Shown in pieces: positions 612-10,857 of a DNA stretch of 10,857 nt. Within the stretch, counting starts at the first letter, position 1. Every line of letters starts with the position of its first letter. Origin of the DNA: Candidatus Hodarchaeota archaeon (GTDB lineage Archaea > Asgardarchaeota > Lokiarchaeia > Sigyniarchaeales > SOKP01); NCBI GenBank assembly GCA_048886685.1, contig JBHLKM010000005.1:1-10857 (forward strand), read 5' to 3'. The notes under the pieces were generated by a model. That model was given only the letters and a program-made list of their open reading frames with translations, was not told where the DNA came from and did not search any database. Made by a program: the position numbers and the translations under genes.

Positions 612-1658
612 ATGACTGAAGTAGAGTCTAATAGGCTAATACTTTTCCTAAAAAGAAGGAAACGAATTATTATTGGTTTTACCACGATTTTATTAGTAGT
701 TTTCATGATTTTTGTAGTAGATTTCATTAAAGTTATCCAAAAAGTAAAATTAATAGGTTTTTTGGGTATGTTTTTATTTATTATAACCTACTCAATCGCA
801 TTTTTATTTAGAAGTCTAAAATTAAAGCTAATTTTTAGAGGAATAGATAAAAATATAAAATTTAGCACGTCATATTTTTCTATTGGTGCTAGTTTTGTAT
901 TAAATGATTTTACTCCCGGTAAATTAGGAGATGTAGCTAAAATTTTCATTATTAAGGATCAAGAAAAATTACTTTTGAGCGAATCCATAGCCGGAATTGC
1001 TATTGAAAGAATTTTAGATCTGATTCTTTTGTTTACTATCAGTTGTAGTTCCTTAATTTACCTCTATATAAGTAGTTTTGGAGCAACGGAAAATGTGGAA
1101 ATTCTAGGGCAAGATATTCAATTTTATTTAATTTTGGGGGCCTTATTGTTGGCTGGATTTGTAATACTATTGGTTCTAGTACTTTATAAAACAGAAACTA
1201 TCTTGAAAATGATTAATAAATTATCTGTTAAGATAGGAAATTATCTTAAAAGATTCTTATTTAATTTTAAAAGAGGAATGAAAAATTTCAGAAATCATAA
1301 AAGAGAATTTATTTATGTAATATTTTTAGGGTTCCCAACTTGGATTTTTGACGCTTTAATTATTTCAATTTTCTTCTATATATTGGAACATCATGTGAAT
1401 ATATTCTTATTGCTCCTTGCAATGATTTTATTATTTTTTAGTAAGACTTTCCCAATCACACCTGGAGGTTGGGGAATCTCTGAAAACATAGGAGCATTAT
1501 TTATTTTTATATTTTATCCTGGAATCCCATATACTGAGATTTTATCGATTTTTATAATTGAACATATATTTAGAAGTGCATATCTCGTTTTTTACGGAGG
1601 ATTTTCCATAATTCATTATAATATTAAAATTCGACAAGCTGCTTTAATCATGGAATGA
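612..1658 (+). CDS. Lysylphosphatidylglycerol-synthase-TM / UPF0104 flippase-like membrane protein (AglD C-terminal-like)
   Basis: 348 aa with about 8-9 hydrophobic segments. Family motifs LNDFTPGKLGDVAK, IERILDL and FPITPGGWGISE are present. Confidence 0.85.
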   Translation: MTEVESNRLILFLKRRKRIIIGFTTILLVVFMIFVVDFIKVIQKVKLIGFLGMFLFIITYSIAFLFRSLKLKLIFRGIDKNIKFSTSYFSIGASFVLNDFTPGKLGDVAKIFIIKDQEKLLLSESIAGIAIERILDLILLFTISCSSLIYLYISSFGATENVEILGQDIQFYLILGALLLAGFVILLVLVLYKTETILKMINKLSVKIGNYLKRFLFNFKRGMKNFRNHKREFIYVIFLGFPTWIFDALIISIFFYILEHHVNIFLLLLAMILLFFSKTFPITPGGWGISENIGALFIFIFYPGIPYTEILSIFIIEHIFRSAYLVFYGGFSIIHYNIKIRQAALIME

Positions 1659-1666
1659 TAATAGAT

Positions 1667-1681
1667 GGTAAAATTTATAAA
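1667..1681 (+). promoter_or_regulatory. Putative archaeal BRE/TATA box (GGTAAAA-TTTATAAA) for the 1704 gene
   Basis: TTTATAAA at 1674-1681 follows a purine-rich stretch and is centred about 26 nt upstream of ATG 1704, the spacing expected for a leaderless transcript. The AT-rich background lowers confidence. Confidence 0.45.
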
Positions 1682-1703
1682 ATTATCATTATGAGATATA
1701 GCT

Positions 1704-2750
1704 ATGGAAGAATTAGAACTTAATGAAAAAAGAAGCTTCATAGAGAGAGTATTAGATAAGAAAATATTGATTTTGATTTTCATTGGGATAATTATACGAA
1801 TTATTATGCTTATATACTATTATTTTTCTCATGCAATTTATCCAAGTCGTTCATGGGGGGATGTAGGTTTAAATTTTAATAAAAGCATTTATTACCCTCC
1901 TTTAAGTACAATGATACTTGATATATTTAGAATTTTATCATTCGGTTCTGTCGAAATCTTCGCATTTTGGGCATTTCTTTGGGATTTAGGAGTAACCTTG
2001 ATGTTCTACTTTGTATTAAAGAGTTTTAACATAAAAAATAGTTCTTATGCGTTCGGTTTATTTTTAATAAATCCATTTTTTTTCTTGAATAACTCCTTTA
2101 GTTTAGAGAATTGTGGTTATCATATCACAGATATGTTCTTTTTCTTTTTCTTATTTATGGCATTAATATATTACCCAAAGGAAAAGAAATATGCCAAATA
2201 TCTCTTTTACATTTTTTTGGGATTATCAATGTGTACTAAATATTACACATTACCTGCACTAGGTTTCTTATTCCTGAAATTTCTTTATGAAAAAAATTGG
2301 GAGGAGATAAAAATGTTCGTTTCTATAACAGGAACTATTTTAGTCATTTTCTTAATAGCTCCAATCTTGATTTTTGATAAATACTTAACAGAATTACTCG
2401 AATGGTACAATATAGGTGAAACTTTTCCCTTGTATATTAGGATAATTCCTATTACTTTAATTGCTTTATTTTTTATTTTTTATCGATTAAAAGAATCTGA
2501 TACGTTTGAAATTATTATAGTATCTATCATAGCAATGGGATCGTTTATGTTCTTTAGTTTTCCATATCTCAGATGGTTTCAATCCATCTTATTTTATGGG
2601 ATCCTAATAGAAAGAGATTTCTTTTCCTTCAACTTAAATTTAGGTTTTTTTAAGAGAGAGATTAAAGTTACCAACCACATTTTAACTTTTTATTTATCAT
2701 TTATAGGAGTACTTTTAGCATACGCTCTTATATTTTTTGGAATTGTTTAA
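1704..2750 (+). CDS. GT-C fold polytopic membrane glycosyltransferase-like protein (GT87/DUF2029/PIG-M-like)
   Basis: 348 aa with about 9-10 TM segments. The first loop has an Asp (SWGDV) followed by YYPPL, then FLINPFF, GYHITD and GLSMCTKYYTLP. This order parallels the D...YPP / NP / GxxD / GxxxxxKxxP pattern of GT-C glycosyltransferases. Confidence 0.65.
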   Translation: MEELELNEKRSFIERVLDKKILILIFIGIIIRIIMLIYYYFSHAIYPSRSWGDVGLNFNKSIYYPPLSTMILDIFRILSFGSVEIFAFWAFLWDLGVTLMFYFVLKSFNIKNSSYAFGLFLINPFFFLNNSFSLENCGYHITDMFFFFFLFMALIYYPKEKKYAKYLFYIFLGLSMCTKYYTLPALGFLFLKFLYEKNWEEIKMFVSITGTILVIFLIAPILIFDKYLTELLEWYNIGETFPLYIRIIPITLIALFFIFYRLKESDTFEIIIVSIIAMGSFMFFSFPYLRWFQSILFYGILIERDFFSFNLNLGFFKREIKVTNHILTFYLSFIGVLLAYALIFFGIV

Positions 2751-2761
2751 AAGCAATCTCT

Positions 2762-3529
2762 TCAAATATTAAGTTTTCTTATTATTTTTTTAACAATTCT
2801 TTTAAAATGAAATTTATAAATATCAAAAAGAAAATTATAAAATTTTGAATCATTAAAGTATCTATATTTCATTAAAATTAGTGCTCCTTCAATACCATCC
2901 AAAATGTTTATTTTTGCATAACCAAATTCACGAACATGATACTTTATTGGTAATTCTTTTATTTTGTAACCGTTTAATATGATTTGGGAAGTAATTTCAG
3001 GCTCAAACTCAAATTCTCTAGCAGTGAGTTTCAATTTCTGTAGTATTTTTCTTGAAAATGCTTTGTAACCTGTCTCCATATCAGTTAATTTAACATTATA
3101 AATTATATTTGTAAGTTTAGTTAGAATTCGGTTTCCAATATAATGAAATCTTGACATTCTTTTTGGTTTTGTAAAGAATCTGGAGCCATAAACAACATTT
3201 ACTTCATTTTTAAGTATAGGTTGAATAAGTTTTGGAATATCTGAAGGATTATATTCAAGATCAGCATCCTGTATAATAAATATATCTCCATTGGCATATT
3301 TCATTCCAACTCTAATTGCTACTCCTTTACCCTGATTCTTAGATAATCTGATAAACTTTATTTTTTTATTAATTATTTCCTCATAAATTATATCTTTATG
3401 ATTGATTTTAGAACCATCATCTATTACAATAATTTCCCGATCTATAGGAAAATTGGTATTAAAAAGCTTTTGTAACAACGTTTTTATTGTTTCTTCTTCG
3501 TTATAGCATGGAACGATTATACTAAGCAT
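2762..3529 (-). CDS. GT2 glycosyltransferase, DPM1-like (polyprenol/dolichol-phosphate sugar synthase)
   Basis: Motifs LSIIVPCYNEE, IIVIDDGS, NQGKGVAIRVG, IQDADLEY (DxD), VYGSRF, TDMETGYKAF and FEFEPEIT. The track starts at TTG 3532; ATG 3529 is the next codon and the more likely start. Confidence 0.92.
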   Translation of the reverse strand: MLSIIVPCYNEEETIKTLLQKLFNTNFPIDREIIVIDDGSKINHKDIIYEEIINKKIKFIRLSKNQGKGVAIRVGMKYANGDIFIIQDADLEYNPSDIPKLIQPILKNEVNVVYGSRFFTKPKRMSRFHYIGNRILTKLTNIIYNVKLTDMETGYKAFSRKILQKLKLTAREFEFEPEITSQIILNGYKIKELPIKYHVREFGYAKINILDGIEGALILMKYRYFNDSKFYNFLFDIYKFHFKRIVKKIIRKLNI

Positions 3530-3580
3530 CAAGATATTTCAAGTAGGTAAATTTTTATTATATTTTAAATAATGAGTAAA

Positions 3581-4810
3581 TTATCTTTTCGCAATCTGAA
3601 TACTAGTTGGAATAATTGCTACTTTGGGAGTTTCACCAAATTTAATTTGCAATTCTTGGATCAAATCAGACCAGTTATTAAACAAAGTAACAGATTCAGG
3701 AAAGAAATGATTTTTATCTATCTCATTCACATTAGGGGAAAAAAGATATACTTTTCTTTTTTGGATAAAGAAATCCCAAAATCTTGTTTCTCCAATATTC
3801 CTATATAACTTTGATCCTGTCTCCCCTACAAGGCTATGATATCCCCGTCCTTCATATGAACTTGTCATGGCGACTATCGCTCCATCTTGATCGATCAACG
3901 TCGGTGGTGCTGACATTAAAAAATTAAATGCTTTATATTGAGCTTGATCTAATTCTGAATCTTCTGGCCATGAATTTAAAAAACAAATTTGATAATTTTG
4001 GCTTATTTTTGTTGAATAAACTTGTTTTCCATATTCAATAGCCTTCCTATGAGCATCTTTAAAATGTCCTGCGAATATTCCTGCGATGCTCCCCTTATCC
4101 GTTAATATAACATTTATTGAAAAATCTAATCCTACCTTCTCAGCAATGTCCTCAATATCTTGACGCGCTTCAGTAATTATTCCAATTCCACCTGATAGAC
4201 TTTTGTGATTTGCTTCAAGAGTATCTATTCCACATACGCCTGGGAGTACTATCTTTGCACCTCCTCCAAATCCCGCAAGAGAGTGAGGTATTACACCTCC
4301 TACAGCAATTTTTAAATCTCCTTCAACATATGTTTTATTAACATATATCGGTGTACCTTTTGATGATTCACCTAAATATTCTAAATTTTCATAAGGATGA
4401 TGATTTTCAATCCTGAATCTTTTTACTATTTCCTTTCCCAATTTAAGAATACAATCCTGCCTTGTCATTGGCCTGTGAGCCCCTATTGCTAATAAGATTG
4501 TTATTTGATTATCTTCTATATTAGCTTTCTTCAATTCCTCAAGAATAAAAGGTAAAATTTTATAAATTGGAGTTGGTCTAGTCATATCATCACTGACAAT
4601 TACGACATTTTTTTTCCCTTTTGCTAATTCTGATAATTTTGAGGTACCAATTGGGTTTAAAATCGCATCTTTAATTTCATCTTCTGAAATATCACTGTTT
4701 TTAGCGCCCTCCATTTTACATATAGATATATCCCAAGAATCAGGGAAATCCAAATCAATAAAACCGGGTTCTCTCCATACTGCCCATGGAATTTTAAATG
4801 ATTGCGTCAT
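3581..4810 (-). CDS. Lactate racemase LarA superfamily nickel-pincer-dependent racemase/epimerase (divergent)
   Basis: Motifs NPIG, SDDMTRPTP, AIGAHRPMT, GTPIYVN, PHSLAGFGGGAKIVLPG, EANH, FAGHFKDAH and EGRG. The catalytic/cofactor His, His, Lys and His positions are retained. No gene symbol is given because substrate-contact residues differ from true lactate racemases. Confidence 0.88.
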   Translation of the reverse strand: MTQSFKIPWAVWREPGFIDLDFPDSWDISICKMEGAKNSDISEDEIKDAILNPIGTSKLSELAKGKKNVVIVSDDMTRPTPIYKILPFILEELKKANIEDNQITILLAIGAHRPMTRQDCILKLGKEIVKRFRIENHHPYENLEYLGESSKGTPIYVNKTYVEGDLKIAVGGVIPHSLAGFGGGAKIVLPGVCGIDTLEANHKSLSGGIGIITEARQDIEDIAEKVGLDFSINVILTDKGSIAGIFAGHFKDAHRKAIEYGKQVYSTKISQNYQICFLNSWPEDSELDQAQYKAFNFLMSAPPTLIDQDGAIVAMTSSYEGRGYHSLVGETGSKLYRNIGETRFWDFFIQKRKVYLFSPNVNEIDKNHFFPESVTLFNNWSDLIQELQIKFGETPKVAIIPTSIQIAKR

Positions 4811-4933
4811 ATTAATTTACCATTTGTTCTATAAAATTTAAACCATTTCATTTACTTTTTTAAATTAATATTTAAGTTTATTATTTTATTTTAATCTATA
4901 AAAATATTTTTTTTAAAAAGAGAAGTTTTGGTA

Positions 4934-6370
4934 ATGATTTTAACAAATAAGAAAAATCATCTCGTAATAATGAAATTTGGAGGTTCTTGTTTAGAAGATG
5001 CTCGCTCTTATAAAAAAACTGCAGAAATCATCAGAGAACATATGGGTAAGTCAAGATTGATAATTGTGGCTTCAGCAATGAAGGGTATAACGGATGAATT
5101 AATAAATTTCTATATAAAATCTTGTAGTGAAGATTCAGATTGCGAGATGATACTTAAAAATGTTAATTATGTTCATAAAAATGTGCTCGATAAATTAATA
5201 GATTCTAAAAGCATTGAATATGAAAGAGCTATAAGCTTTCTGAAAATCAATATTGAAGAATTGACTCAATTAGGACGAGTTATACGACTCATAAGACCGA
5301 GTAGTGATATTCAAGATCTTATTATTTCTTATGGAGAGAAACTTAGTACCTATATTTTAACTCAATATCTCAACAATAAAGGGATTCAATCAAAATATTT
5401 CGCTTCAAACGAGTTAATTCTTACAGATGATAATTTTGGTAATGCTTTACCTTTACTAGATGATACAGAAACTCTTATTAACGAGGTTTTAGTGCCTATA
5501 CTAAAAGCTGAGCCTGATTTAACAGCATGTATTACTGGATTCTTCGCTTCAACAAAAGAGGATAAAAAAATTACTACCCTAGGAAGAGGAGGGACAGATT
5601 TAACAGCTGCTATAATAGCTTATTCTTTAAGGAATATCTTTGATACTAAGGTTATTTACTGGAAAGACGTTAAGGGCTTATTAGATGCTGATCCGAGAAT
5701 TGCTAAAAAAACCTCTCTTCTAAAACAAATTTCATATATTGAAGCGAAAGAACTTGCTTTTTTTGGTACAAAAGTATTGCATCCTTTATGTCTTGATGTT
5801 AATGAGAAAGGAAATGTCCCCTCTGAGATTAGATCATTTATGGATCCTAGCACAGATGAGTTTACAACAATTACCAAAGAAATAGTTGAAAATGGGAAGG
5901 TTATTAAAGCTATTACGTCACTCTATAAACTCTCAATGGTTACAATTGAAGGTGACACGATGATTCCCCTTTCAGGAACAGCTTCCAAACTATTTTCTCT
6001 TTTGGGGGATAATAATGTGGATATTGTCTTTATATCTCAGAGTTCCTCTGAAAATAACCTTACTTTTGGAATAAATTACGAAGACTCAAAAAAAGTAAGT
6101 TTTTTATTGAGAAATTCAGAATTATTTGGTAAAAACTGGTTTCGTATTAAAATTAATAATGATATTTCTTTAGTTGCAGTTATAGGTGCTGGGGTGCTCT
6201 ATACCCCAGGTATAGCCGGTAAAGTATTTACTACACTAGGTGATAACAATATTAATATTTTAGCAATCGCTCAAGGTTCTTCTGAATTAAATTTTACTGC
6301 AATAATAGAAAGAAACAATTGTGAAAAAGCTATAAATGTATTATATGATGCCTTTATTGGCTCAAAATGA
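4934..6370 (+). CDS. lysC: Aspartate kinase with two C-terminal ACT domains
   Basis: Motifs MKFGGS, VASAMKGITD, SYGEKLS, TTLGRGGTDLTA, DVKGLLDADPR and EAKELAFFGTKVLHP; ACT motifs ISQSSSE and IAQGSSE. The start is uncertain (TTG 4928, ATG 4934 or ATG 4970). Confidence 0.93.
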   Translation: MILTNKKNHLVIMKFGGSCLEDARSYKKTAEIIREHMGKSRLIIVASAMKGITDELINFYIKSCSEDSDCEMILKNVNYVHKNVLDKLIDSKSIEYERAISFLKINIEELTQLGRVIRLIRPSSDIQDLIISYGEKLSTYILTQYLNNKGIQSKYFASNELILTDDNFGNALPLLDDTETLINEVLVPILKAEPDLTACITGFFASTKEDKKITTLGRGGTDLTAAIIAYSLRNIFDTKVIYWKDVKGLLDADPRIAKKTSLLKQISYIEAKELAFFGTKVLHPLCLDVNEKGNVPSEIRSFMDPSTDEFTTITKEIVENGKVIKAITSLYKLSMVTIEGDTMIPLSGTASKLFSLLGDNNVDIVFISQSSSENNLTFGINYEDSKKVSFLLRNSELFGKNWFRIKINNDISLVAVIGAGVLYTPGIAGKVFTTLGDNNINILAIAQGSSELNFTAIIERNNCEKAINVLYDAFIGSK

Positions 6371-6382
6371 GGAAAATGAAAG

Positions 6383-7618
6383 TTAATAAAAATTGGTAAA
6401 TTTTTCTAATGCAATACTTTTCCTCCTTTCTTCTCTCCCTTCAGAATCAATATTATCCTTAAGTGCTTGATTACAAATTTCTTTTCCAATTATTACTTTT
6501 GGATTATTTGCCCAATTAACCTCAAATAGCAAACAAAGATAGTATACTGTTGATAATATAAATGCAATAAGGAGGCCCATATTCCTTTCCAAAGGGTTTT
6601 CAATGGATAATTTAGCAGTAGGAACACCTTGTTGAATTAATGCTTGAAAAGTTGCATCTGCCTGATAATTGACAATAGTTTGAGCACTTTTTCCATTAAC
6701 ATATTCAATAGAGGATTCTAAACTTAAATCAGGTATTTCATGTTCCACAGTCCACAAAATTGGTATTACTATGCCCTTAGTCCCTCCTAGTAAATACTCT
6801 AAGACAGAATGTTGGCATATTGGAGCACTTTGATAAGTCCCGATCATACCTTTTTCATCTTTCCCCGTACTTTCAGAAATACATTGAACCCATAATCCGG
6901 TACTTCCCTCTAAATTTTTAGAATATGGCATTGAGAATATTACATTATAACCTTTCTTATATAGGTTGAATAAATAAGCTGAAAATTCCAATGACAAATT
7001 ACTTTTATAATTAGAGAACAAATTATATCCATCCTCTAATCCTTTTATGAAATTTTCAATGTTAATCCCTGAAATATGTGCTGGTACAATACCAACGTTA
7101 GTAACTGATCCTGCAAAACGTCCACTAAGATTAGGCACCTCTAAAATAGGACAACCAATTTTTCGAAGTATATTATTCATAGTTCCCATAGATGATAAAC
7201 CCAGAAACTTATATCCTTCGCTTAAGAAAATGCCAATTGTAGAATTAATATCCAAAGTTTCTCCTCCTCTTGAAATTGGAATCACAATTGAGTCATTTGG
7301 GGAAGTTTTATCTAAACATCCTTTCAACTCTACCGCTCGTGAACTCGTAATAGGGAATATATTTTTCTGTGATAAATGCTTTAGTGTCAATAGAGTTTGA
7401 ATTGACCCTCCAGTTCCTAAAACTATTATATTCTTAATATCATTTGTTAATACGGTTTTGGTTGTTCGTTTGATATAGTTAATATCTAGATAAGATTTAG
7501 TATCAAAGAAAAAAGGACTATCCCACCTATCTTTATTTTTTTGAATTAATTTTATTGAATCTTGAAGTAAAGTCTCATCTAATTTTGGATAATACTCTAG
7601 TTTTATGTTATTCTTCAT
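6383..7618 (-). CDS. pgi: Glucose-6-phosphate isomerase family (double-SIS) protein, divergent
   Basis: Motifs IVLGTGGS, ISRGGET, SGRF, QCISESTGKDEKG (catalytic Glu), QHS (catalytic His) and NPKVIIGK (C-terminal Lys) occur in canonical PGI order. Confidence 0.78.
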   Translation of the reverse strand: MKNNIKLEYYPKLDETLLQDSIKLIQKNKDRWDSPFFFDTKSYLDINYIKRTTKTVLTNDIKNIIVLGTGGSIQTLLTLKHLSQKNIFPITSSRAVELKGCLDKTSPNDSIVIPISRGGETLDINSTIGIFLSEGYKFLGLSSMGTMNNILRKIGCPILEVPNLSGRFAGSVTNVGIVPAHISGINIENFIKGLEDGYNLFSNYKSNLSLEFSAYLFNLYKKGYNVIFSMPYSKNLEGSTGLWVQCISESTGKDEKGMIGTYQSAPICQHSVLEYLLGGTKGIVIPILWTVEHEIPDLSLESSIEYVNGKSAQTIVNYQADATFQALIQQGVPTAKLSIENPLERNMGLLIAFILSTVYYLCLLFEVNWANNPKVIIGKEICNQALKDNIDSEGREERRKSIALEKFTNFY

Positions 7619-7900: not shown

Positions 7901-9130
7901 ATGGCTAAAGCCATAGATACAAAGGGCAAAAGTGAATTTATTGAAGGTCAAGCATATTATTGTCCTGAATGTAAAAGAACGCACACTAAGGGAAAGATTT
8001 ATAAAGAACACTTGAAGTATGCTCAAATGGAAAATTCAGAGGAAGAAGCAAATATTGATATCTATGACGATGAAGAAGAACTAATTGAGGCTTTTAATGA
8101 TTTAGAAGAAGAAAGAATTGATGAAATTGATATTCAATTAAAGGATGAAAAAGATTCTAATATTGATGGGACTGAAAACGACTCAAAAGATTGCGTAGAT
8201 GCCGTTAAAAAACTTCCTGGGGTAGGAGAAGCTACTTTAAATAAGCTTATTAAGGCAGGGTTCAATAGCCTTGAATCAATTGCATATACGCCACCCTCAA
8301 TAATTAAAGAAGAAAGTGGTCTTGGTGATAAAACTACTGAAAAATTAATTAAAGCCTCAATGACCCAGCTAGGAATTGGTTTTAAGTCTGCAGATGCAAT
8401 TTGGGAACACAGAAAAAATATTGCGCGGATTACCACAGGCAGTCATGAACTAGATGATTCCTTAGGAGGTGGTGTAGAGACTGGAAGTGTAATCGAATTT
8501 TTTGGAGAATTCAGAACGGGAAAAACTCAAATTACGCATCAACTTTGCGTAAATGTACAATTACCTAAAGAAAAAGGTGGTCTCGAAGGTAGGGCTCTCT
8601 ATATTGATACAGAAGGCACTTTTAGGCCAGAAAGAATAATTCAAATGGCCGAAGGGCTTGATTTAGATTATACTAATGTATTGAAAAATATTGTATTTGG
8701 GAGAGCTTATAATTCTGATCACCAAATTTTACTAATTAAAGAAGCAGCTAACATTATCAAAGAAAAAAACATAAAATTGATTGTTATTGATTCACTTATC
8801 GGACATTTTAGAAGTGAATATATCGGGAGAGGGACATTGGCAAACCGACAACAGACAATCAATTCTCATCTACATGACTTACTAAGGTTATGTGATATAT
8901 ATCCAGATTTAGCAATAGTTTTGACAAACCAAGTCCAAGCTAAACCTGATGTTTTTTATGGTAATCCTTTGCAAGCTGCTGGAGGAAATGTTGTTGCCCA
9001 TGGATCAACTATTAGAGTATATTTACGAAAAGGTAAAGGAGAACAGAGAATAGCCAAGATTGTTGATGCCCCTCACTTACCTGAATGTGAGGCTATTTTT
9101 AGTATTACAGAAAATGGGATATCAGATTAG
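7901..9130 (+). CDS. radA: DNA repair and recombination protein RadA (Rad51/Dmc1 family) with a ~100-aa N-terminal extension
   Basis: HhH N-domain ([17 protein letters not shown]), FxxA polymerisation motif (GFKSA), Walker [21 protein letters not shown], Walker B LIVIDS, L1 ([13 protein letters not shown]), L2 ([14 protein letters not shown]) and C-terminal DAPHLPE. Confidence 0.97.
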
Positions 9131-9408: not shown

Positions 9409-10857
9409 TTATATTAATTTCTCGTATTCTTTTGATTTATTCGAGAGTCTCTTAACTTCTTTTGTCATTTCAGTATCGCCTAACTTAAAAATCTCGGAAG
9501 CAATTTTTGAAGACATCTTATATTTTTGAGCCGCCTCGTTATATTTTTCTTTTTTGGCTGCTAACTTTGCTTCTTTCTCAAGTGTTTTCATCTTGTTTTT
9601 AAGATCTTCAATTTTAGTTGATCGAATAAATTCATTTAATACTTCTAATTCTCCAGTTAATTCCCAGTTTGTAGCGATTTTTGCAGCATTCTGGTAAATA
9701 TTAATTGATTTTTCATAATCGGTCTCTTTTCTTGCTGTTTTAGCAATCTTCTTTAATTTACTGATTTCTTTTTTGGCACTTTTAGCATTGTCGATTAGAG
9801 AAGCACCAGGTTTTTCTTCAATTGGAGCTGAAATTATTTCATGCTGTTCCGTTAAACTCACAAAGTAGGCTTCCCTTTCAGCAGCTCCCATTTGTGCTAA
9901 ATCTTTTACCAATTTTTGTTTTTCTTCTTGAGACAAATGTACTAATGATCCAACTTTTTGATTTATTAGAGCTAATTCTTGTTGAGAAATTGGTTGAGCT
10001 TCGATGACACCTATTTCAATTGGTACCAAAATCTTCTTATCTCTTAATTCTTTAATCCCCATAAATATTTCTGCAGTGTCTTTATTCGTCCTTTCACCTG
10101 CTTCTTTTAAAAGTGTTGCAATAAAGAAGAAATTTCGGTCAGAATCTTTCATTAAATTATTAGCTACTTTTAATACGTCCTTGGAGTGAGCATTCTTTAA
10201 GGCTTTAACGTTTGAGAATTTATATGTAATTTCATGAGGAAGAATAATCGAAGTACTTAATATCTCGTCAATTAGTACCCCAGAGTTTCTGAATACATTT
10301 AGCTGTCCTCTCCAATTAGGTAATTCACTCTCATAGGATTTCTCAAAGGTATTTATAAAATCCACTAGATTTTTACGCAAGATAACCGAAGCTTTTTTGG
10401 ATAACACTAATGCAACTCTAATGAATTCACCATCAGTTAATAAAAGCATTTTATCACCATAGGTGATTTCATTTAACTCCTCTTGACAAACTAAATCTCT
10501 TCCAAAAGAACAAATTGCTGAAATGAAGCCACTAATCAATTCTGGGTCAATACCTTCCGTTCCAAAAGATTTAAAGAAAATGCACGTACCAGTCCCCTTA
10601 TATAACACGAGGATATGTTCCAAATTAATAGCGTCATCGAAAATTGTTTTAACTTCTTTTAAAATCCGTGATTTCTCGCGCTTTTTAGGAACAACTACTC
10701 CCCTATAAACACCAATTGAACCACCAGCAACAGATAATGCCGCTCCAATGATTATAAGATAAGGAATAAGATCTCCAAAAGTCATACCGCGAGGTGTGGG
10801 AATTACCTCAATATCATTTATCCATAAAGTATCGTCTTGATGATTATATTCACTTGC
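9409..10857 (-). CDS. C-terminal part of a larger single-pass membrane protein: TM helix + longin-like domain + winged-helix-like domain + tandem helical (MIT/TPR-like) repeats; starts beyond the right edge
   Basis: The frame is open upstream of the track's Met 10785 to the window end (ASEYNHQDDTLWINDIEVIPTPRG-MTFG...). The TM segment LIPYLIIIGAALSVAGGSIGVYRGVVV is followed by KKREKSR (positive-inside). The longin-like pattern is HILVLYKGTGTCIFFKSF...DPELISGFISAICSFGRDL...EITYGDKMLLLTDGEFIRVALVL...LVDFINTFEKSY...WRGQLNVF...LIDEIL. Confidence 0.85.
   Translation of the reverse strand, partial: ASEYNHQDDTLWINDIEVIPTPRGMTFGDLIPYLIIIGAALSVAGGSIGVYRGVVVPKKREKSRILKEVKTIFDDAINLEHILVLYKGTGTCIFFKSFGTEGIDPELISGFISAICSFGRDLVCQEELNEITYGDKMLLLTDGEFIRVALVLSKKASVILRKNLVDFINTFEKSYESELPNWRGQLNVFRNSGVLIDEILSTSIILPHEITYKFSNVKALKNAHSKDVLKVANNLMKDSDRNFFFIATLLKEAGERTNKDTAEIFMGIKELRDKKILVPIEIGVIEAQPISQQELALINQKVGSLVHLSQEEKQKLVKDLAQMGAAEREAYFVSLTEQHEIISAPIEEKPGASLIDNAKSAKKEISKLKKIAKTARKETDYEKSINIYQNAAKIATNWELTGELEVLNEFIRSTKIEDLKNKMKTLEKEAKLAAKKEKYNEAAQKYKMSSKIASEIFKLGDTEMTKEVKRLSNKSKEYEKLI

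What the first reader, a model, noticed from the sequence alone, without database searches (positions are those of the whole stretch)
9409..10857. Receptor-like single-pass membrane protein coupling an ectodomain to longin, winged-helix and tandem MIT/TPR-like modules
Seen: the ORF is open to the window edge, with a beta-strand-like and Pro-rich juxtamembrane segment, one TM helix (~10690-10770), a basic stop-transfer patch, and about 425 aa of cytoplasmic tail. Known: longin domains are small-GTPase and trafficking platforms in eukaryotes (TRAPP subunits, AP sigma, Mon1/Ccz1, NPRL2/3) and are expanded in Asgard archaea. Inference: an extracellular domain is wired in one chain to a GTPase-docking longin and a possible ESCRT-III-binding tail. 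This would be a candidate primordial receptor/adaptor for membrane remodelling or cargo sorting, and I know of no functionally characterised protein with this architecture.
Basis: partly seen in the sequence, partly recalled or inferred. Interest (0 to 1): 0.82.

Follow-up and report, generated by a model that had tools for sequence, protein, structure and literature searches.

The report
Asgard surface receptor with longin tail
This is the inner end of a 1,564-residue, probably sugar-coated surface protein of a Lokiarchaeial (Asgard) archaeon whose strongly conserved intracellular part has the longin fold that eukaryotes use to dock small GTPases, so it may link the cell surface to that machinery, but no partner is shown.

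Summary
Observation confirmed. The window ends at a scaffold gap with an exact 77-bp overlap; closing it gives a 1,564-aa type I membrane protein: signal-like leader, variable lectin-like tip, six Ig-like domains (50 sequons), one TM helix and a 428-aa cytoplasmic part. AlphaFold2 plus structure searches give that part a longin domain (Z 10-11), a winged-helix-pattern domain, a small bundle and two three-helix units. The first unit leans TPR, the second MIT, but Vps4-MIT signature residues are missing, so ESCRT-III binding is unsupported. [quoted passage not shown] The tailed form is usually single-copy across the order, including cultured L. ossiferum (NEF87_001574) and P. syntrophicum (DSAG12_03900). 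The ectodomain-TM-longin core occurs in 11 further Asgard families sampled. Its inside is far more conserved than its outside (73% against 31-50%). Best reading: an adhesin-receptor that holds a non-catalytic longin docking platform at the membrane (0.45). No partner was shown. I found no paper describing this architecture, but this scan has reported it repeatedly on other genomes, orthologues included.

The parts
9409..10857 (-). 3' part of a 1,564-aa type I membrane protein gene. It starts outside the window at C5:14280 (L001:410-5281) and crosses a scaffold gap at C5:10858-10957.
10771..10857 (-). Last strand of the sixth Ig-like stalk domain and a Pro-containing extracellular linker. The rest of the ectodomain (leader, head with lectin-like jelly roll at aa 125-288, six Ig/macroglobulin-like domains at aa 451-1102) lies beyond the window.
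10690..10770 (-). Single transmembrane helix, rich in Gly/Ala/Ser in its inner half
10624..10695 (-). Basic stop-transfer patch (PKKREKSR, 10666-10689) and juxtamembrane helix running into the longin domain
10246..10623 (-). Longin domain (beta-beta-alpha-beta-beta-beta-alpha-alpha), the most conserved part; conserved G56/A60/F64 face on helix 1; no GP motif, no arginine finger
10003..10245 (-). Winged-helix-pattern domain with conserved acidic residues on helix 3 (E209, E216)
9847..9984 (-). Small three-helix bundle with a conserved E273-R274 pair
9610..9786 (-). Three-helix unit 1, TPR-leaning (LGN/Pins TPR Z 11.6, rmsd 1.0 over 63)
9412..9609 (-). Three-helix unit 2, MIT-leaning fold (VPS4A MIT Z 10.0, rmsd 1.6 over 64; tied with TPR-like bundles), without the Vps4-MIT signature residues

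Best explanation
A single-pass adhesin-receptor. Outside, a variable lectin-like tip is held off the membrane on an Ig-like stalk whose length changes in blocks of about 320 aa; it binds surfaces, glycans or partner cells (inferred). Inside, a juxtamembrane helix places a longin plus winged-helix module directly under the membrane. The longin pairs through its helix-1/strand-2 face with another longin or roadblock domain (a second receptor, a soluble paralogue, or a roadblock-fused GTPase). It acts as a non-catalytic docking platform that concentrates small-GTPase machinery where the ectodomain is engaged (inferred). The repeated TPR/MIT-like units are a lineage-specific peptide-binding scaffold for further partners (inferred). 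Shown computationally: anatomy, topology, folds, conservation, distribution. Inferred: ligand, partner and any signal transfer.
For: Longin fold: matches to AP sigma, Sec22b, synbindin, Fuzzy and the Lokiarchaeal longin 8yqg at Z 10-11.4, rmsd about 3 A over 116-128 residues. In the same set of orthologues the cytoplasmic part is 73% identical, stalk and head domains 40-50%, and the lectin-like tip 31%. The longin is the most conserved cytoplasmic region, 55% against 37-42%. The helix-1 residues L53, G56, F57, A60, F64 are kept in orthologues and paralogues; G77 and A81 of that helix hold across 13 distant Asgard proteins. The same module is fused to unrelated inputs: other ectodomains, 7-TM and 10-TM domains, a Cys4 finger, as output modules are. 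Longin and roadblock dimers dock small GTPases in TRAPP, MglA/B and Ragulator (PMC10933270). The genome has about 80 small-GTPase-like proteins. One orthologous roadblock-Rab fusion lies two genes upstream in 7 related genomes.
Against: No partner is shown. Longin domains also work without GTPases, as in SNAREs and AP sigma/mu. The neighbouring roadblock-Rab gene is missing from the locus in L. ossiferum and several others, and has no orthologue in this genome, while unrelated housekeeping genes are at least as syntenic. Stalk length varies from 1,550 to 3,025 aa, which suits a spacer better than a conformational relay. No expression data were obtained.
Confidence: 0.45

Rival explanations
1. 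Anchoring or sorting tag without signalling: the cytoplasmic module only positions the adhesin, by tying it to a cortical scaffold, a coat-like adaptor or the actin-based protrusions, as AP sigma or SNARE longins sort proteins.
For: The best longin matches include AP sigma/mu, COPI zeta/delta and SNARE longins. A tandem copy of the ectodomain head in P. syntrophicum is followed by a stalk-TM gene with only a short tail, so the outside part also occurs without the module. No catalytic motif.
Against: The same module sits on soluble Cys4-finger proteins, and the longin on 7-TM proteins, which look like sensors rather than cargo.
Confidence: 0.25
2. ESCRT-recruiting receptor: the tail units bind ESCRT-III C-terminal motifs and bring membrane scission to contact sites or protrusion necks.
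For: Unit 2 superposes on VPS4A, archaeal Vps4, MITD1 and katanin MITs at Z 9.5-10. It aligns with a Lokiarchaeial Vps4-MIT profile at 89% HHalign probability, against at most 42% for TPR controls. One homologue's extended tail scores 29.6 bits on Pfam MIT, cut-off 30. A soluble paralogue lies 4.8 kb from Vps4/ESCRT-III in this genome.
Against: Only 33 columns (helices 1-2) align. The invariant MIT residues A9, A13, D20 and L39 are replaced, and the hydrophobic helix-3 position after the Tyr is mostly Thr/Ser. Unit 1 is closer to TPRs. The unit-2 profile finds generic helical-repeat proteins in the genome, not Vps4. Z under 13 is common for helical bundles.
Confidence: 0.1
3. Membrane-tethered one-component regulator: the winged helix binds DNA, either while tethered (ToxR/CadC-like) or after proteolytic release.
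For: Winged-helix pattern; Atlas shape neighbours carry HTH_47 or TrmB families.
Against: The conserved residues of helix 3 are acidic (E209, E216), the wing is short, and the domain is less conserved than the longin. No DNA-binding family is hit. Some family members end after the longin (L043).
Confidence: 0.1
4. Membrane-bound GATOR1/folliculin-like GAP: the longin supplies the catalytic arginine for a Rag- or Arf-like GTPase.
For: Longin followed by a winged helix recalls NPRL2/3. Foldseek lists GATOR1/SEA chains among its hits, with poor global fit. Asgard NPRL2-like longins are described.
Against: GP motif in 0 of 87 orthologues and 0 of 45 paralogues; Arg in the strand 4-5 loop in 0 of 87 and 1 of 45; the loop is a constant short turn. 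These motifs define GAP longins (PMC12290439). A non-catalytic, NPRL3-like role stays possible and falls under the best explanation.
Confidence: 0.05

Closest known systems
Eukaryotic longin domains (AP sigma/mu, COPI zeta/delta, TRAPP synbindin/sedlin, Sec22b/VAMP7/Ykt6, Fuzzy/Mon1, SRX)
   Same: Same fold and topology; Z 10-11.4, rmsd about 3 A over most of the domain.
   Different: 6-20% identity. To my knowledge none is the cytoplasmic part of a type I surface protein; longin SNAREs are tail-anchored and have no ectodomain.
NPRL2/NPRL3 of GATOR1 and the Asgard 'NPRL2-like longin' fusions (Liu et al., 10.1101/2020.10.19.343400)
   Same: Longin followed by winged helix. An 'HTH; NPRL2-like longin' orthogroup is listed for L. 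ossiferum and P. syntrophicum (ORTHOMCL28); whether it includes this family could not be checked.
   Different: No GP motif or arginine finger. The paper's text describes fusions to two-component domains, not to an ectodomain and TM.
Asgard Vps28-C multidomain proteins with longin, TPR, Ig-like and HTH/PCI domains (Makarova et al., PMC11188069)
   Same: Overlapping domain vocabulary: longin, TPR, Ig-like, HTH.
   Different: Those are defined by Vps28-C and an adaptin appendage. Neither appeared among the fold-search hits here, although the small bundle was barely tested. The passage does not describe them as single-pass surface proteins.
Asgard adhesin-like surface proteins (N. marumarumayae, 10.1101/2025.07.22.663070) and bacterial Ig-repeat adhesins
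   Same: Leader, tandem beta-sandwich stalk and TM anchor; tip domain like the Cwp84 lectin-like domain (Z 12.5, rmsd 2.7 over 143).
   Different: That paper reports no folded cytoplasmic module on them; here 428 highly conserved residues lie inside.
Vps4-type MIT domains and LGN/Pins-type TPRs
   Same: Three-helix bundles with the shared helix 1-2 pattern.
   Different: Vps4-MIT signature residues are absent. The units repeat 2 to about 6 times and are joined by a continuous helix.

Membership tests
Longin fold | Five-stranded sheet with beta-beta-alpha-beta-beta-beta-alpha-alpha order, about 120-130 aa | tested here: met
   AF2 model, mean pLDDT 81; many longin chains at Z 10-11.4; Foldseek probability about 1.0
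Longin fold | Pairs with a second longin/roadblock domain through helix 1 and strand 2 | tested here: inconclusive
   The face is conserved; pairing itself was not established with these tools
GAP longins (NPRL2, FLCN, SMCR8) | GP motif before strand 2 (PMC12290439) | tested here: not met
   0 of 87 orthologues, 0 of 45 paralogues; the Gly is kept, the Pro is not
GAP longins (NPRL2, FLCN, SMCR8) | Arginine finger, taken from my own knowledge to lie in the extended strand 4-5 loop | tested here: not met
   Short constant turn; Arg in 0 of 87 and 1 of 45. An invariant Arg (R93) lies within strand 5 instead; its role is unknown
Vps4-type MIT domain | Asymmetric three-helix bundle of about 70 aa | tested here: met
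   Unit 2 against VPS4A MIT Z 10.0, rmsd 1.6 over 64; archaeal Vps4 MIT Z 9.9; tied with TPR-like bundles
Vps4-type MIT domain | Residues invariant in 30 Lokiarchaeial Vps4 MITs (A9, A13, D20, L39, R65) and a hydrophobic position 63 | tested here: not met
   Equivalent positions are M/K, E, A/E/V, A, K and T/S (helix-3 register set by motif, not by the local alignment); Pfam MIT below cut-off
Vps4-type MIT domain | Binds ESCRT-III MIM peptides | not tested
TPR | Helix pairs with the TPR small/aromatic pattern in tandem arrays of three or more | tested here: inconclusive
   Unit 1 against LGN/Pins TPR Z 11.6; HHalign up to 90%; profile hits to consensus TPRs, E 6e-5; but only two three-helix units and Pfam below cut-off
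Winged helix | alpha-beta-alpha-alpha-beta order with a wing | tested here: inconclusive
   Pattern seen in the model; Atlas neighbours with HTH_47/TrmB; the domain was barely tested in the PDB searches
Type I membrane glycoprotein | N-terminal leader, extracellular sequon-rich domain, one TM, positive-inside C-terminal flank | tested here: met
   Hydropathy and charge only: SignalP was not available and glycosylation is not shown

The most novel reading that the evidence does not exclude
A pan-Asgard class of single-pass receptors that couple surface contact directly to small-GTPase switching through a membrane-tethered longin platform, this protein being the conserved Lokiarchaeial member with an added scaffold that recruits membrane-remodelling partners. 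That would be a surface-to-GTPase signalling route older than eukaryotes.
Probability: 0.3. Interest if true: 0.88.

Novelty: new variant of a known kind. Interest (0 to 1): 0.62.

Why it matters
Cultured Lokiarchaeia have no S-layer but carry irregular surface proteins, protrusions and dozens of small GTPases and longins whose upstream inputs are unknown (PMC9834061, PMC10933270). A conserved, mostly single-copy protein that joins an adhesin-like outside to a longin inside is a direct candidate for that link. It can be tested: orthologues exist in L. ossiferum (NEF87_001574) and P. syntrophicum (DSAG12_03900), and the core architecture reaches Heimdallarchaeia, the closest relatives of eukaryotes. 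The claim is architectural; function is not shown.

Tried and rejected
Frame ends beyond the window, or is an artefact: rejected. Pfam and NCBIfam: nothing above cut-off; the GSH-S_ATP hit is a short sub-threshold match inside the longin. Complex prediction of the longin-wH homodimer: no answer, score 0.00, no evidence either way. Atlas feature search of the winged helix alone: no usable hit. RNA runs: no RNA holder listed. Locus tags were not found in the full-text library or in the supplements held; the glycoproteome supplement was not held; the Nature version of Liu et al. was not held under the id tried. Operon partner: the gene has no tightly coupled neighbour; the syntenic P-type ATPase and ADP-forming acetyl-CoA synthetase beta genes were used only to show orthology. 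The roadblock-Rab gene nearby is kept as a weak lead, since it is absent from this genome. Promoter/terminator scan: at chance level. Only two folds were allowed, so the winged helix and the small bundle were not searched alone.

Full report
Gene and assembly. The window is C5:1-10857 of a 4.4-Mb, 30% GC assembly. Homologues are annotated almost all as Promethearchaeota or other Asgard bins. The minus-strand frame 9409-10857 is open. The window stops at a 100-N gap whose two sides share an exact 77-bp overlap, as in eight other gaps; closing it keeps the frame and gives 1,564 aa, the size of many orthologues. The ATG at 10785 is therefore not the start.

Topology. The N-terminus has a basic stretch and a hydrophobic leader, recognised in most full-length homologues. 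One TM lies at 10690-10770. Across 80 orthologues its outer flank averages -1.1 and its inner flank +4.4. Sequons number 50 before the TM (22.6 expected) and 1 after. P. syntrophicum has AglB and uses N-X-S/T sequons, but glycosylation there was seen mostly on one solute-binding protein (PMC11284389), so glycosylation of this protein is likely, not shown.

Ectodomain. The AF2 model (pLDDT 88.6) is all-beta. It has a head containing a jelly roll like the Cwp84 lectin-like domain (Z 12.5) and six Ig/macroglobulin-like sandwiches resembling adhesin stalks (Z 9-12.6). Orthologues fall into length classes of about 1,560, 1,880 and 2,240 aa and reach 3,025 aa. The jelly roll is the least conserved domain (31%), the others 40-50%, the cytoplasmic part 73%.

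Cytoplasmic part. The model (pLDDT 81) shows a juxtamembrane helix, a longin (25-150), a winged-helix pattern (151-231), a three-helix bundle (238-283), a loose linker and two three-helix units joined by one long helix. The longin matches AP sigma, Sec22b, synbindin, Fuzzy and the Lokiarchaeal longin 8yqg at Z 10-11.4. It is the best conserved region, with a conserved G56/A60/F64 face. It has no GP motif and no loop arginine, the marks of GAP longins. The winged helix was not searched alone; Atlas neighbours carry HTH_47/TrmB, and its conserved helix-3 residues are acidic.

The tail. Unit 1 fits LGN-type TPRs best (Z 11.6; HHalign up to 90% against 77% for MIT). Unit 2 fits MIT better (89% against at most 42%), though structurally tied with TPR-like bundles. 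The residues invariant in 30 Lokiarchaeial Vps4 MITs are largely replaced. The unit repeats from two to about six times in homologues, and its profile finds generic helical-repeat proteins rather than Vps4. I treat it as a TPR/MIT-like scaffold; ESCRT-III binding is a minority option.

Distribution. The tail query gives strong matches (E below 1e-9, my count from the table) in 53 of 67 genomes of the family and 4 of 7 of a sister family, usually one per genome, and none outside the class among those searched. A Helarchaeales protein also carries the units. Orthologues in L. ossiferum (NEF87_001574), H. repetitus (K9W44_06485) and P. syntrophicum (DSAG12_03900) share the upstream P-type ATPase and ACD-beta genes. 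The cytoplasmic query matches 275 of 300 Asgard genomes, many through the longin alone. I checked 20 distant loci: ectodomain-TM-longin, mostly with the winged helix, occurs in 11 further families. These include Heimdallarchaeum endolithica, Heimdallarchaeota bin6, Freyarchaeum, Atabeyarchaeia, Hermodarchaeota and Helarchaeota. This genome has about 75 related longin domains, about eight further single-pass paralogues, several 7-TM fusions and three probably soluble paralogues with the same module and tail.

Partners. An orthologous roadblock-Rab fusion (clade support 98/98) lies two genes upstream in seven genomes. It is absent at the locus in L. ossiferum and others and has no orthologue here, so it is a lead, not evidence of an obligate pair.

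Mechanism. Most likely an adhesin-receptor that tethers a non-catalytic longin platform for small-GTPase machinery under its ectodomain (0.45). Rivals: anchoring or sorting only (0.25), ESCRT-III recruitment (0.10), tethered transcription factor (0.10), catalytic GAP (0.05). Anatomy and distribution are shown computationally; ligand, partner and signalling are inferred.

Literature and novelty. Asgard longin expansions and fusions are known, and so are Asgard adhesin-like proteins. Nine searches found no description of an ectodomain-TM-longin protein; many subscription papers are not in the library. This scan has noted the same family on many other genomes, including follow-ups of an orthologue and of Heimdall, Thor and Atabeya members; those notes are not independent evidence. 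Verdict: real, a new variant of Asgard longin fusion proteins, interest 0.62.

Noticed in passing
window 10781-10857 / C5:10858-10957: Scaffold gap with an exact 77-bp duplication; 9 of the 13 gaps in this assembly close the same way, so genes crossing them look falsely broken.
   Followed up: yes
G000 C6 about 191850-194160, C11 about 61700, C20 about 71600-74030, C12 about 141100: Five 7-TM proteins and one 10-TM protein end in a related longin domain; a similar 10-TM fusion occurs in a 1.42-Mb complete genome (L044). Possible receptor-like sensors.
   Followed up: partly
G000 C10:137649-139022, C22:12496-13899, end of C2: Paralogues with longin, winged helix and TPR/MIT-like tail but no TM; the two complete ones start with a Cys4 finger, the C2 copy is cut by the contig end. 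The C10 copy lies 4.8 kb from Vps4 and an ESCRT-III gene, with unrelated genes between.
   Followed up: partly
G000, many contigs: About 26 proteins of 600-730 aa consist of TPR-like repeats with a C-terminal longin domain.
   Followed up: no
window 7901-9130: RadA with an acidic N-terminal extension that starts with a CxxC..H..H finger; it converges on the studied gene in most family members.
   Followed up: no
L003-L020, between the gene and radA: A 160-210-aa lysine-rich ORF follows the gene in most genomes of the genus but is missing from the window's 278-bp gap.
   Followed up: no
L062:13675-18355 (P. syntrophicum): Directly downstream of the orthologue, a copy of the ectodomain head (654 aa) overlaps a 916-aa stalk-TM gene with a short tail; a split or two-part tail-less paralogue.
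   Followed up: partly
L062:5924-6955, L024:8076-9113, L093-L095, L098, L103: Orthologous roadblock-Rab fusion between the P-type ATPase and ACD-beta genes, inverted in one family, with no orthologue in this genome.
   Followed up: yes
window 612-3532: Cluster of a lysylphosphatidylglycerol-synthase-like TM protein, an unannotated multi-TM protein and a GT2-like glycosyltransferase, possibly for surface glycosylation.
   Followed up: no
window 3581-7618: LarA-like lactate racemase domain protein, aspartokinase-like gene and an unannotated 411-aa protein that resembles a sugar isomerase by eye (no Pfam hit).
   Followed up: no
G000 C13 about 92870-99240 and C14:15084-20357: Giant 2,122- and 1,757-aa proteins built of many TPR/MIT-like three-helix units related to the tail.
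   Followed up: no
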